From assembly GCF_055900595.2 (NCBI RefSeq), contig NZ_CM148325.1: a stretch of 64,000 nucleotides of DNA. One strand, 5' to 3'. Made by a program: the position numbers. This document shows positions 37,401 through 40,400 of the stretch, piece by piece. How positions within the stretch are numbered: position 1 is the first letter of the stretch; every line of letters starts with the position of its first letter.

Positions 37401-40400
37401 AAGAGTTACGTGTTGCGCAGGAAACGCGTGAGCGTGTGCTGAGTATTGCCCAACAGCAGCATTATCAGCCCAGCATTCATGCCCGCTCATTACGGGACAA
37501 CCGCAGTCATACCATTGGTCTCGTCGTTCCTGAAATCACTAACTACGGATTTGCAGTATTTTCCCATGAACTGGAAACATTGTGTCGGGAAGCGGGCGTC
37601 CAACTCCTCATATCCTGTACTGATGAAAATCCTTCACAGGAAACAATGGTGGTGAACAATATGATTGCCCGCCAGGTTGATGGGTTAATCGTCGCATCCA
37701 GTATGCTGCATGATAATGACTATCAAAAACTTAGCGAGCAATTACCTGTTGTGTTGTTCGATCGCCACATGAACGGCAGCACATTGCCATTGGTCATTAC
37801 TGACTCTGTTTCTCCCACCGCCGCTCTGGTGGCAGATATTGCACGGAGTCACCCGGATGAATTCTATTTTCTGGGGGGACAACCCCGTTTGTCACCGACT
37901 CGCGATCGACTGGAAGGATTTACACAAGGCTTGCAGCAAGCCGGAGTAACGCTACAACCTGAATGGATTATTCACGGTAATTATCATCCGAGCTCAGGCT
38001 ATGAAATGTTTGCCGCGCTATGCGCTCGTTTAGGACGTCCTCCTAAAGCCTTATTCACTGCCGCTTGTGGATTACTGGAAGGCGTTCTGCGCTATATGAG
38101 CCAATATAATTTACTCGACAGTACAATCCACCTGGCGAGTTTTGATGATCATTATTTGTATGATTCACTTTCGGTAAGAATCGACACAATACAACAGGAT
38201 AATCGCCAACTTGCTTTTCACTGCTTTGAGCTTATTTCGCAACTGATTGAAGGTGAAACGCCATCCCCATTACAGCGTTATCTTCCTGCCAGTTTACAAA
38301 AACGCTATAGATAATTTATTAATTATCTTATGTAGCTGAGTATTAGGTGACAAATGATCAGTCTTTCCCACGACAATTGTATCGTTCTGATGAACTCATA
38401 TTGACGCATTTTTCGGGCGTATCAGTCCCCGGTGTTACGAATGGTGCATACGAACGATCGCAGTTTGACGATGGTTGATTTATTTTGTTGCGCAGGGGCA
38501 ATCGCCTGCTAGGTACCGAAGGCTGGCTCTGAAGTACTGAGTCGGGTGATCGCGTCTGGCCGCTGGCTGCGAATTACTGACACGGGATTGGTGGCAGGTG
38601 ATGAAATCCTGTCCCGGAAATGGCTCCGGATTGATTCAAGTTCTGACCCGCTGTCAGCCCGCGTGGTTGCTGCTCTGGCTCATTTCCTGTCGTCAGTTTT
38701 CTCATGCCCGGCTGCGGGTTTTCGGACTGAATGATAATATCTGACGACAGGAGTCGCTCATCTATCGAAGGTAAATCTCCCTGAAAGTAATAGTTCTGGC
38801 AGGGGGAACAGAACTGTAATCATTGTACCGTAATTTGAGTTGGCTACCTTTGCTACATGAAAACTTTATTCACTTTGTTCATGTTGATTGGGGTTTTCAA
38901 TGAGGAAAGTTTCCAGGGTACAATCTCCATTAACCTGTTTCCGCAAAGCAAGTGGCATTTTACCGTTACCAGACCCACGTCCTGGTTTCGCCGTTCTCAT
39001 CCTCAAAGATATATTTCGCTTTTCTCACACCGCCTTTGGGTTTTCGTTTGGTTTCCGTTGTCCCTGCAATAGCAGAAACTGGACCCTGCCATTCTTCCGG
39101 GTCAAGCCCCACAGAAACGATGTACTCAAATACCTGTTGACATTTAGTTTCCAGTTCCTTACGTTCAGCCGCTTTTCGTTCAGCATCTTCACGGCGTTCT
39201 TCAATAACAGTGTTGAGCTTTTCCTGCATGTCGAGTAATTGCTCAAAATCAAGTTCGCGTACATACGTGCGTAGTGAACGAATATTCGTCATTGTCCGAC
39301 TGATGATGCTGTATTCTTCTTCTTTAGTCAGTTTGCACATAATTCCCCTCTCTTTTGCAATAAACGTGTTTTCTCTGGTGGGTTGATTACCCAGTCTTTT
39401 TTACTGTGTCTGACATTTTGTACTGTGGTGCAGTTGTAATGCAAACCTTCCGGGCTTTTGGGACACAGCATTTCAGTCCGGGCCCCATCATTACCATTTT
39501 GTTGATTCGAAACGAAAACCCTCACCAATATCGATCGATTTTACCGATCGATATGATCACATCGATCGGTTGTAACCATTTTACCCTGTCTTTTGCATGG
39601 TTTTAAAATAGGCAACCCTCTTTGTCGGGTAGGGCAAGAACCAACGGAGATGATTGAAATGAAAAAGGTTATTGCGGTTTCAGCGCTTGCAATGGCAGGC
39701 ATGTTTTCGGCCCAGACTCTGGCTGATGAGAGCAAAACAGGCTTTTATGTGACCGGTAAAGCAGGTGCTTCTGTTATGTCACTTTCAGAGCAACGTTTCG
39801 TTGATGGTGAAGGGGCATGGGCGGATAAATATAAAGGCGGTGACAAAAGTGATACGGTTTTTGGCGCAGGCCTTGCGGTGGGATACGATTTTTATCAGCA
39901 CTACAATGTGCCGGTGCGTACTGAAGTGGAGTTTTATGGCCGCGGTAACGCTGAATCAAAATATCGTCTGAGTTATTGGGAAAGTGTCGGTGGTGCCGAG
40001 TTTGATGATGCACAGAACAAGCTCAGTGTAAACACGCTGATGCTTAATGCGTATTATGATTTCAGAAACAGCAGTGCATTCACGCCATGGATATCTGCTG
40101 GTCTGGGTTATGCTCGGGTTCATCATAAAACTTCGTACATATATACCGATAACAGTCCGGCAGGCAGTGAAGTATATTCAGCTTCAGCGTCAAAATACGA
40201 AAATAACCTGGCATGGAGCCTTGGTGTCGGTGTTAAATACGATGTGACGCAGGATTTCAGCCTTGACCTCAGTTACCGGTATCTGGATGCAGGGGATTCC
40301 ACTCTGACTTATAAAGATGAGGATGGCGCTAAATATAAATCCTCTGTTGATGTCAGAAGTAATGAGTTTATGTTAGGTGCAACATATAACTTCTGATGGC

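What the first reader, a model, noticed from the sequence alone, without database searches (positions are those of the whole stretch)
38862..39340. H-NS paralogue frameshifted exactly at the DNA-binding loop, giving a truncated H-NST-like product
The minus-strand gene aligns with the H-NS dimerisation and linker regions up to TRTW, then stops (TRTWVW*). Removing one base restores a frame encoding SGNGKMPLALRKQVNGDCTLETFLIENP, the equivalent of the H-NS C-terminus but with GNGK in place of the canonical GQGR motif. Truncated H-NS variants from islands can act as dominant-negative anti-silencers, so this may de-repress island genes; a sequencing error is the alternative. It sits immediately next to repeat copy B.
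Basis: partly seen in the sequence, partly recalled or inferred. Interest (0 to 1): 0.5.

Follow-up and report, generated by a model that had tools for sequence, protein, structure and literature searches.

The report
Frameshifted island H-NS-like silencer gene
An E. coli genomic island carries a copy of an H-NS-like gene-silencing protein that one extra G cuts short just before its DNA-binding loop. The mutation is real and widespread in nature, but it looks more like ordinary gene decay than a purpose-built anti-silencer.

Summary
The minus-strand ORF 38966-39340 encodes 124 aa ending TRTWVW*. One extra G (GG to GGG, 38974-38976) separates it from an intact 157-aa allele, WP_000335225.1, whose tail reads SGNGKMPLAL...QSE.

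It is not a sequencing error. The same +G allele occurs in 10 of 121 gene-carrying complete E. coli genomes, where NCBI's annotation pipeline (PGAP) marks it "frameshifted". The exact 124-aa product is on record on 833 contigs. The SNP haplotype points to a single origin. The allele sits in a tRNA-Phe island found at pheV here and at pheU in other strains.

The parent gene is a divergent H-NS paralogue, 40% identical to H-NS. Its nearest relative is the IncX-plasmid Sfx clade: 67% identical to the IncX4 homologue, which has the same SGNGK loop.

The truncated product keeps both oligomerisation sites, the linker and the beta-hairpin, and loses the minor-groove loop and helix. A dominant-negative, H-NST-like effect is therefore plausible but untested. 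It is not a member of the H-NST clade.

The same gene is also broken independently elsewhere: a -1 frameshift at codon 48 in 18 of 146 genomes, and an IS66 insertion in one of them. That favours pseudogene decay. Interest is low to moderate.

The parts
38966..39340 (-). Truncated ORF of 124 aa plus stop. It is the N-terminal three quarters of an H-NS-family (Sfx-clade) paralogue and ends TRTWVW*.
   Evidence: ORF list and sequence. PF22470 matches residues 11-83 with E 2.6e-19. The precomputed Pfam hit for the 124-aa product is PF22470 only. NCBIfam H-NS and StpA models match below their cut-offs.
38974..38976 (-). GGG run holding the single inserted G (intact alleles have GG). This is the frameshift site, directly after the Trp122 codon.
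   Evidence: Alignment to the intact allele. SNP table. All 18 +G loci examined carry ACGTGGGTCTGGTAA.
38966..38968 (-). Premature stop codon TAA created by the frameshift.
   Evidence: Sequence reading and ORF end coordinate.
38866..38973 (-). Out-of-frame 3' remnant encoding SGNGKMPLALRKQVNGDCTLETFLIENPNQHEQSE*. This is the minor-groove loop plus the helices of the DNA-binding domain. It is still identical to the intact allele.
   Evidence: PF00816 matches residues 108-147 of the repaired protein. The AF2 model places the loop at 123-129 and helices at 130-136 and 142-145. The best Foldseek match is 2L93, the H-NS C-terminal domain, with TM 0.69.
39092..39310 (-). Region encoding the oligomerisation domain (residues 11-83), aligned to H-NS dimerisation site 1 and dimer-dimer site 2.
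   Evidence: PF22470. 3NR7 residues 9-83 align to residues 15-89 with E 4e-11. AF2 helices at 6-28, 32-76 and 81-84.
38975..39091 (-). Region encoding the basic linker (KRKPKGGVRKAK) and the two-strand beta-hairpin (residues 84-122). The truncated product keeps this part.
   Evidence: Alignment to H-NS, StpA and Hfp. AF2 shows residues 85-109 without regular secondary structure, with pLDDT below 50 only at 92-104, and strands at 110-113 and 119-122.
39345..39350 (-). Shine-Dalgarno-like GAGGGG, 4 nt upstream of the ATG. It is unchanged relative to intact alleles.
   Evidence: Sequence reading. No differences from the intact haplotypes F163 and 2013C-4991 between 39341 and 39731.
39578..39607 (-). 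Promoter-like site (TTTAAA-18-TAAAAT) in the 318-bp divergent intergenic region shared with the outer-membrane-protein gene. This is a consensus match only.
   Evidence: 4 sites found against 1.9 expected, so the support is weak.
38394..38625 (+). 'Repeat copy B', a direct repeat of about 240 bp at about 85% identity. Its partner lies at about 24115-24350. Together they bracket the type I R-M plus sucrose (scr) module. It is context, not part of the gene.
   Evidence: Gene content.

Best explanation
This is a genuine, naturally segregating +1 frameshift allele of an accessory H-NS-family gene. One G was duplicated in a GG run. The gene sits in a tRNA-Phe (pheV) genomic island of E. coli.

The parent gene encodes a 157-aa silencer-type protein of the Sfx clade, the H-NS homologues of IncX plasmids. 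It has an N-terminal coiled-coil oligomerisation domain, a basic linker, and an H-NS-type DNA-binding domain whose minor-groove loop reads S-G-N-G-K. The extra G shifts the frame right after the second beta-strand (Trp122). Translation therefore ends two codons later, and the loop and both helices of the DNA-binding domain are lost.

Shown:
- The mutation, and its position relative to the domains.
- That it is real.
- That it arose once and spread with the island to pheV and pheU sites in unrelated strains.
- That the same gene is independently inactivated in other strains.

Inferred:
- The full-length silencing function is lost, so this is a pseudogene in the PGAP sense.
- The promoter and RBS are untouched, so a 124-aa oligomerisation-only fragment is probably still made.
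- If that fragment is stable, it would co-assemble with H-NS, StpA, an intact copy of the paralogue or an IncX Sfx protein, and would modulate their filaments.
- That modulation could be weakly dominant-negative or adapter-dependent. It would be a by-product of decay rather than an evolved function.
For: Frameshift defined against the intact allele. PGAP labels it a 'frameshifted' pseudogene in APEC O2-211, E14, WP2-S18-ESBL-08, O111:H8 7-58 72A, Eco_23-2667, KOr019 and E5.

Frequency: the 61-mer test finds the +G allele in 10 of 121 complete genomes and the one-base-shorter form in 110. The exact 124-aa protein is on 833 contigs, is indexed in 1125 blocks of assemblies, and had the same neighbours in all 10 places shown.

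Single origin: over +-3 kb the window equals APEC O2-211 and E5 (0 differences), and differs from O111:H8 by 1, E14 by 2 and KOr019 by 5. The nearest intact haplotype, F163, differs inside that stretch only by the G and one synonymous site; a third counted difference is an alignment-edge gap. WP2-S18 is a recombinant that keeps the window haplotype across the gene.

The island is at pheV here and at pheU in O111:H8 and Eco_23-2667.

Domain map: Pfam, PDB, AF2, Foldseek to 2L93, and alignment placing the cut at H-NS W109, before G111-Q-G-R114.

Independent inactivations of the same gene: a -1 frameshift at codon 48 in 18 of 146 complete genomes. Its products are on 166 and at least 1000 contigs, on two diverged alleles. 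It is annotated 'frameshifted' in NCTC11121. Strain 504239 has that frameshift plus an IS66 insertion.

Upstream signals are identical to intact haplotypes.
Against: There are no expression or protein data, so the 124-aa product may not accumulate. That would make this a plain null allele.

Conversely, nothing here excludes that the truncated form is beneficial. It has persisted through transfer into several backgrounds and is common (833 contigs). One strain carries it alongside an intact copy.

Diversity within the +G lineage is too low to test selection on the remaining ORF: 0-5 SNPs per 6.8 kb, and 5 variable sites among 18 loci.
Confidence: 0.7

Rival explanations
1. One reading: the 124-aa product is a functional, selectively retained H-NST-like antagonist. 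It would heteromerise with H-NS, StpA or full-length paralogues through its intact oligomerisation domain, poison DNA bridging, and so de-repress island genes or other silenced genes.
For: The product retains both oligomerisation sites. Peptides H-NS 1-58 and 56-82 inhibit bridging, and H-NST is a natural antagonist. The promoter and RBS are intact. The allele is common and has travelled between pheU and pheV islands and between strains. It coexists with an intact copy in Eco_23-2667. The N-terminal part is 71% identical to the IncX4 Sfx-type protein, so heteromers with plasmid silencers are conceivable.
Against: It is not related to the H-NST clade (30% over 57 aa, E 5e-4). The 3' remnant is unchanged, so this is a recent lesion and not an evolved short gene. 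The same gene is also destroyed by a codon-48 frameshift that removes most of the oligomerisation domain, and by an IS66 insertion. Loss itself therefore appears to be tolerated or favoured. C-terminally truncated H-NS can still repress through StpA as an adapter, so antagonism is not the only possible outcome. No functional data exist.
Confidence: 0.2
2. Sequencing or assembly error: the true gene is intact.
For: Single-base indels in G runs are a known error type. PGAP's 'frameshifted' flag is also used for such errors.
Against: The run is only 3 G. The identical allele is present in 10 complete genomes from different laboratories, hosts and countries, on 833 contigs including NCBI, ENA, JGI and Logan assemblies and a metagenome, and on one shared SNP haplotype.
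Confidence: 0.02
3. Recoding: a programmed +1 ribosomal frameshift or transcriptional slippage restores the 157-aa protein from the +G allele.
For: The premature stop lies only two codons after the shift site. A +1 shift at UGG-UAA-C would give a near-normal protein with VW in place of SG.
Against: There is no slippery codon or prfB-like Shine-Dalgarno stimulator at the right spacing (AGGA lies 12 nt upstream of UAA, read). tRNA-Trp would re-pair poorly on GGU. GGG is too short for transcriptional slippage. The intact allele is the majority form, so the +G state is derived.
Confidence: 0.02

Closest known systems
Sfx clade of H-NS homologues (IncX plasmid backbone gene downstream of topB-hha; Sfx of R6K represses conjugation; PMC11796372)
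   Same: It gives the best sequence match to the intact island protein:
- 67% identity over 98% of its length to the IncX4 homologue (pEC1281), which has the same W-S-G-N-G-K loop.
- 55% to the IncX1/X3 RGR-type homologue.
- Only 40% to H-NS.

It is also associated with a mobile element, as the clade is described to be.
   Different: It is chromosomal, in a tRNA-Phe island, and has no adjacent topB or hha. The loop is NGK, whereas most Sfx homologues have RGR. The copy in this window is frameshifted and lacks the DNA-binding loop and helices. Identity to R6K Sfx itself could not be measured because the record was not available.
H-NST (80-aa truncated H-NS-like antagonist of the serU, IE3 and EARL islands; Williamson & Free 2005, as summarised in PMC7074111 and PMC3897749)
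   Same: Both are island-borne H-NS-family polypeptides with an oligomerisation domain and no H-NS-type DNA-binding domain. The expected mode of action is the same: formation of mixed oligomers.
   Different: - It belongs to a different clade: 30% identity over 57 aa to CFT073 H-NST.
- It is 124 aa against 80 aa.
- It keeps the dimer-dimer site, the basic linker and the beta-hairpin.
- It arose by a recent single-base frameshift, and the dead C-terminal coding sequence is still present.
- It sits in a different island type and integration site.
- Antagonism has not been shown.
Laboratory C-terminally truncated H-NS alleles (dominant-negative derivatives; StpA 'molecular adapter' effect; Williams 1996 and Free 1998/2001, cited via PMC9499468 and PMC7074111)
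   Same: The architecture matches: an intact N-terminal oligomerisation region with the DNA-binding domain deleted or disabled. The cut here corresponds to H-NS residue 109.
   Different: Those alleles derive from chromosomal hns. This one is a natural allele of a paralogue only 40% identical to H-NS, so heteromerisation with H-NS or StpA is assumed, not shown.
Hfp/H-NSB and H-NS2, the characterised 'third' H-NS paralogues of pathogenic E. coli
   Same: They are full-length accessory H-NS paralogues carried on genomic islands.
   Different: Hfp from CFT073 aligns at only 36-37% identity and carries the canonical TGQGR motif. The survey of the H-NS family in PMC7544231 required more than 50% identity to H-NS, so it did not cover this family.

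Membership tests
H-NS family (Pfam PF22470 + PF00816) | N-terminal coiled-coil oligomerisation domain | tested here: met
   PF22470 matches residues 11-83 with E 2.6e-19. 3NR7 matches with E 4e-11. AF2 helices at 6-28 and 32-76.
H-NS family (Pfam PF22470 + PF00816) | C-terminal H-NS DNA-binding domain present in the translated product | tested here: not met
   PF00816 (E 6e-5) and 2L93 (E 1.8e-8) match only after one G is removed. The real 124-aa product has PF22470 only and ends after strand 2.
H-NS family (Pfam PF22470 + PF00816) | Q/RGR minor-groove (AT-hook-like) motif | tested here: not met
   The repaired frame has N-G-K (SGNGKMP), a conservative variant that is conserved in homologues and in the IncX4 plasmid protein. 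The motif is absent from the truncated product.
H-NST (serU / IE3 / EARL islands) | Sequence membership of the H-NST clade | tested here: not met
   30% identity over 57 aa, E 5e-4, to CFT073 H-NST (L006:9257-9499). It is much closer to full-length Sfx-type proteins (71%).
H-NST (serU / IE3 / EARL islands) | Stand-alone short gene (~80 aa) covering only the oligomerisation domain | tested here: not met
   It is 124 aa including the linker and beta-hairpin. The downstream DNA-binding-domain coding sequence is still present out of frame and identical to the intact allele.
H-NST (serU / IE3 / EARL islands) | Antagonises H-NS silencing by hetero-oligomerisation | not testable with these tools
   This needs reporter and interaction assays. 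Only architecture supports it.
Sfx clade (IncX H-NS homologues) | Closer in sequence to IncX sfx-position genes than to H-NS or StpA | tested here: met
   67% to the IncX4 homologue and 55% to the IncX1/X3 homologue, against 40% to H-NS and 40% to StpA over the N-terminal part. No phylogeny was built, and R6K Sfx itself was not compared.
Sfx clade (IncX H-NS homologues) | RGR motif and the topB-(hha)-sfx plasmid backbone context | tested here: not met
   The motif is NGK, and the context is a chromosomal tRNA-Phe island between scrR and an outer-membrane-protein gene. The IncX4 member shares NGK.
Frameshift pseudogene (PGAP sense) | A single-base indel relative to an intact, widespread reference protein, disrupting the frame | tested here: met
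   PGAP notes 'frameshifted'.
Programmed +1 frameshift (prfB-type) | Slippery codon plus in-frame stop plus upstream SD stimulator, conserved as the normal state of the gene | tested here: not met
   The sequence ACG UGG GUC UGG UAA C lacks such signals. The unshifted allele is the majority state.

The most novel reading that the evidence does not exclude
Frameshift truncation of island-borne Sfx-type silencers may be a recurrent, selected route to natural anti-silencers. On this reading, the 124-aa fragment is expressed and forms mixed oligomers with H-NS or StpA, with the intact island paralogue, or with the 71%-identical IncX4 plasmid protein. It would thereby de-repress island genes (the divergent outer-membrane protein, the WYL-linked candidate defence genes) or the transfer genes of IncX plasmids.
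Probability: 0.1. Interest if true: 0.6.

Novelty: new member of a known kind. Interest (0 to 1): 0.25.

Why it matters
As it stands, this is a well-supported example of ordinary decay of an accessory nucleoid-protein gene, already flagged as a pseudogene in RefSeq.

Two things give it modest value. First, the parent gene belongs to a little-studied chromosomal branch of the Sfx clade with an N-G-K minor-groove loop. That loop is shared with the backbone gene of IncX4 plasmids, so natural loss-of-DNA-binding alleles are ready-made material for studying that variant. Second, if the fragment is stable, it is a natural analogue of the laboratory dominant-negative H-NS truncations. It could alter silencing of island or plasmid genes in the strains carrying it, which include avian-pathogenic, O111:H8 and ESBL isolates. 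That question can be tested directly with a one-base repair.

Tried and rejected
- **Assembly error:** rejected on population evidence.
- **Recurrent origin of +G:** WP2-S18 looked like a different haplotype (65 differences). The SNP map shows it is a recombinant that carries the window haplotype from 35700 to 39731, so there is no evidence of a second origin.
- **Programmed frameshift or slippage:** no signals in the sequence.
- **Separate translation of the C-terminal piece:** an ATG in the shifted frame directly abuts GAGG with no spacing, and the piece would lack the beta-hairpin, so I judged this implausible.
- **Selection test on the truncated ORF:** 18 +G loci are almost identical, so there is no statistical power.
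- **Abundant 83-84-aa 'members' of the protein cluster (P0103, P0104):** these are an overlapping upstream ORF in another frame, not truncated H-NS.
- **Literature:** searches for this gene (pheV / H-NS / sucrose island; mdbA / microcin 24) found nothing specific. Williams 1996 (PMC178199) is not held. R6K (LT827129.1) is not in the plasmid collection.
- **First CFT073 fetch:** this hit the pks/asnW region rather than serU; corrected.
- **Rfam scan of the window:** only the tRNA-Phe.
- **PADLOC:** no match for the H-NS-like protein itself.
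Full report
**1. The observation**

On the minus strand, an ORF runs from ATG 39340 to TAA 38966-38968. It encodes 124 aa ending ...DENGETRTWVW*. The adjoining frame, 38866-38973, reads SGNGKMPLALRKQVNGDCTLETFLIENPNQHEQSE*.

Aligned to an intact allele from E. coli 2013C-4991 (PGAP protein WP_000335225.1, 157 aa), the window differs by a single inserted G. TGG-TCT becomes TGG-GTC, giving the GGG run at 38974-38976. There is also one synonymous CGA/CGC change.

The homology is strong:
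- Pfam PF22470 (H-NS N-terminal domain) matches residues 11-83 with E 2.6e-19.
- PDB H-NS 1-83 (3NR7) matches with E 4e-11, and the H-NS C-terminal domain (2L93) with E 1.8e-8.

**2. Real allele or error?**

The window is E. coli but is not identical to any RefSeq complete genome over 24 kb.

A 61-base probe centred on the frameshift matches 121 complete genomes. Ten match exactly: APEC O2-211, WP2-S18-ESBL-08, KOr019, four chicken isolates E14/E15/E16/E32, E5, O111:H8 7-58 72A and Eco_23-2667. Another 110 match with a single difference; in every listed row the match spans 60 bases, one fewer than the probe. PGAP annotates the ten as 'frameshifted' pseudogenes.

The exact 124-aa protein is recorded on 833 contigs from NCBI, ENA, JGI and Logan assemblies. 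It is indexed in 1125 blocks of assemblies including a metagenome. All 10 places shown have the same neighbours. An assembly artefact is excluded.

**3. Origin and spread**

I compared +-3 kb around the gene in twelve sequences:
- The window is identical to APEC O2-211 and E5.
- It differs by 1-5 sites from O111:H8, E14 and KOr019.
- The nearest intact haplotype, isolate F163, differs inside that stretch only by the extra G and the synonymous site; a third counted difference is an alignment-edge gap.
- WP2-S18 first looked distant, but it is a recombinant that carries the window haplotype from 35700 to 39731.

The mutation therefore arose once.

The gene lies in a tRNA-Phe island of at least 50 kb. 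In the window, tRNA-Phe is at 49814-49889, the integrase at 48450-49667, and yqgA-speC lies beyond, which identifies pheV. In O111:H8 7-58 72A and Eco_23-2667 the same island, with the same +G allele, sits at pheU next to dicD-dsbD. Eco_23-2667 also has a second island copy at pheV with an intact gene. The allele has thus moved horizontally, by island transfer or recombination, after it arose.

**4. What the parent gene is**

The repaired protein is 40% identical to H-NS (E 7e-25) and 36-37% identical to Hfp. It falls below the NCBIfam cut-offs for H-NS and StpA.

It is much closer to the H-NS homologues encoded downstream of topB-hha on IncX plasmids:
- 67% over 98% of its length to the IncX4 gene of pEC1281, which has the same W-S-G-N-G-K loop.
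- 55% to the IncX1/X3 gene, which has S-G-R-G-R.

That plasmid locus is the sfx position described for the Sfx clade. The clade is a mobile-element-associated branch of the family in which 'most' members carry RGR (PMC11796372). The broad survey of the H-NS family required more than 50% identity to H-NS, so it did not include proteins like this one (PMC7544231). I found no paper on this island gene.

The NGK loop is conserved in E. coli and Salmonella homologues down to about 57% identity (P0021), and the family also has E. marmotae members. It is therefore a maintained variant, with Q to N and R to K both conservative changes, and not a sign of degeneration.

**5. What the frameshift removes**

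An AlphaFold2 model of the repaired protein has mean pLDDT 77.5. It shows:
- helices at 6-28, 32-76 and 81-84;
- a linker at 85-109 with no regular secondary structure, where pLDDT falls below 50 only at 92-104;
- strands at 110-113 and 119-122;
- the loop at 123-129 (SGNGKMP);
- helices at 130-136 and 142-145.

[quoted passage not shown] In the alignment the break corresponds to H-NS W109, immediately before T110-G-Q112-G-R114.

The product therefore keeps both oligomerisation sites, the basic linker (KRKPKGGVRKAK) and the beta-hairpin. It lacks the groove-inserting loop and both helices. The ribosome-binding site (GAGGGG at 39345-39350) and the whole upstream region are identical to intact haplotypes. 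Nothing visible prevents expression of the 124-aa fragment. The gene is convergent with scrR, so no polar effect is expected.

**6. How it most likely works**

N-terminal H-NS fragments are known to interfere with full-length protein:
- H-NS 1-58 and 56-82 abolish DNA bridging in vitro (PMC5647153).
- Truncated silencers are dominant-negative (PMC7074111).
- The natural 80-aa H-NST antagonises H-NS (PMC3897749).

On the other hand, C-terminally truncated H-NS can still repress bgl through StpA acting as a DNA-binding adapter (cited in PMC9499468). The fragment could therefore plausibly modulate H-NS-type filaments, but neither the direction nor the size of the effect can be predicted.

The fragment is not a member of the H-NST clade: 30% identity over 57 aa to CFT073 H-NST, which I recovered from the serU island.

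**7. Decay or design?**

The same gene is broken in other ways in other strains:
- A -1 deletion (GAAGAA to GAAGA) at codon 48 is present in 18 of 146 complete genomes.
- Its 104-aa products occur on 166 contigs and on at least 1000 contigs, on two diverged alleles.
- NCTC11121 carries it as a 'frameshifted' pseudogene.
- Strain 504239 has that frameshift plus an IS66 insertion splitting the gene.

The codon-48 lesion leaves only 47 native residues. It cannot preserve the full oligomerisation domain, so what recurs is loss of the gene rather than preservation of a particular truncated form. At least 28 of about 146 complete genomes carrying the gene (about 19%) have a frameshift.

The 3' remnant in the +G lineage is still identical to the intact allele, and the lineage shows almost no diversity. 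The event is therefore recent, and selection on the remaining ORF cannot be assessed.

My best reading is a real, single-origin, horizontally spread loss-of-DNA-binding allele (confidence about 0.7). Any dominant-negative activity would be an untested by-product. An adaptively retained anti-silencer remains possible (about 0.2). Error and recoding are each about 0.02.

**8. Novelty and score**

The feature is already flagged as a pseudogene in RefSeq. The kind, a C-terminally truncated H-NS-family protein, is well known. What is new is modest:
- the placement of the parent gene in the Sfx clade;
- the NGK loop shared with IncX4 plasmids;
- the population picture of one origin, two integration sites and recurrent independent disruptions.

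Interest is 0.25. The most novel reading not excluded is that such truncations act as natural anti-silencers, possibly also against IncX plasmid Sfx proteins. I put that at about 0.1 probability, with interest 0.6 if true.

Noticed in passing
window 40817-44459 (+): Next to the outer-membrane-protein gene lies a WYL-domain HTH regulator (40817-41713). It is followed by two proteins matching the PADLOC candidate defence families PDC-M09A (41762-42841, E 5e-22) and PDC-M40B (42888-44459, E 5e-42). This may be an uncharacterised phage-defence locus. PGAP variously calls the third gene 'cobalamin adenosyltransferase' or hypothetical.
   Followed up: partly
window ~24115-24350 and ~38394-38625: Two direct repeats of about 240 bp at about 85% identity bracket a 14.3-kb module holding a type I restriction-modification system (hsdRMS) and the sucrose PTS operon scrKYABR. 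This suggests the module was inserted or exchanged as a unit. Copy B is the 'repeat copy B' of the finding.
   Followed up: partly
L008, L009, L012, L013 versus window 48450-49889: The same island occupies pheV in the window, TUM12357 and APEC O2-211. It occupies pheU (dicD-dsbD side) in O111:H8 7-58 72A, Eco_23-2667, F163 and JSMCR1. Eco_23-2667 carries two copies, one at each site, one with the frameshifted gene and one with the intact gene.
   Followed up: yes
L027 (strain 504239), L028 (NCTC11121); corresponds to window ~39197-39202: A second, independent frameshift of the same gene (-1 in GAAGAA at codon 48) is present in 18 of 146 complete genomes and on at least 1000 contigs. In strain 504239 the gene is additionally split by an IS66 element.
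   Followed up: yes
proteins P0025, P0028, P0035 versus P0002: Some E. coli homologues combine the island-type N-terminal domain (MCKLTKEEEYSIISRTMTNIRSLR...) with the IncX1-type C-terminal half (proline-rich linker, SGRGR loop). This suggests domain shuffling by recombination between island and plasmid paralogues.
   Followed up: no
window 39659-40396 (+): An outer-membrane beta-barrel protein of 245 aa is transcribed divergently from the H-NS-like gene across a 318-bp intergenic region (Pfam OMP_b-brl/OmpW; weak NCBIfam match to adhesin Adr). It is an obvious candidate target of the neighbouring silencer.
   Followed up: partly
window 45125-46798 (+): The island encodes an EptA/CptA-like phosphoethanolamine transferase, only distantly related to MCR enzymes and far below their cut-offs.
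   Followed up: partly
window 39328-39528 (-): A 66-aa ORF in the 5' leader of the H-NS-like gene overlaps its start in another frame. Extended versions of it are deposited as 'hypothetical protein' on at least 1000 contigs (P0103, P0104) and were clustered with the H-NS-like proteins. This is probably an annotation artefact.
   Followed up: partly
window 8928-9414 and 10507-10993: Two blocks of direct repeats (151 nt at 87% and 290 nt at 90%) share a spacing of 1579 bp. One copy lies inside a 1341-aa ORF (6124-10149) and the other beyond it, which suggests a duplicated 3' segment or a repeat-containing large protein.
   Followed up: no
L007, L009 (WP2-S18-ESBL-08, Eco_23-2667): In some strains the island has acquired resistance modules next to or inside the scr genes: IS6100, sul1, qacEdelta1, a class 1 integron, and blaCTX-M-2 with ISCR. 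In Eco_23-2667, IS6100 truncates scrB.
   Followed up: no
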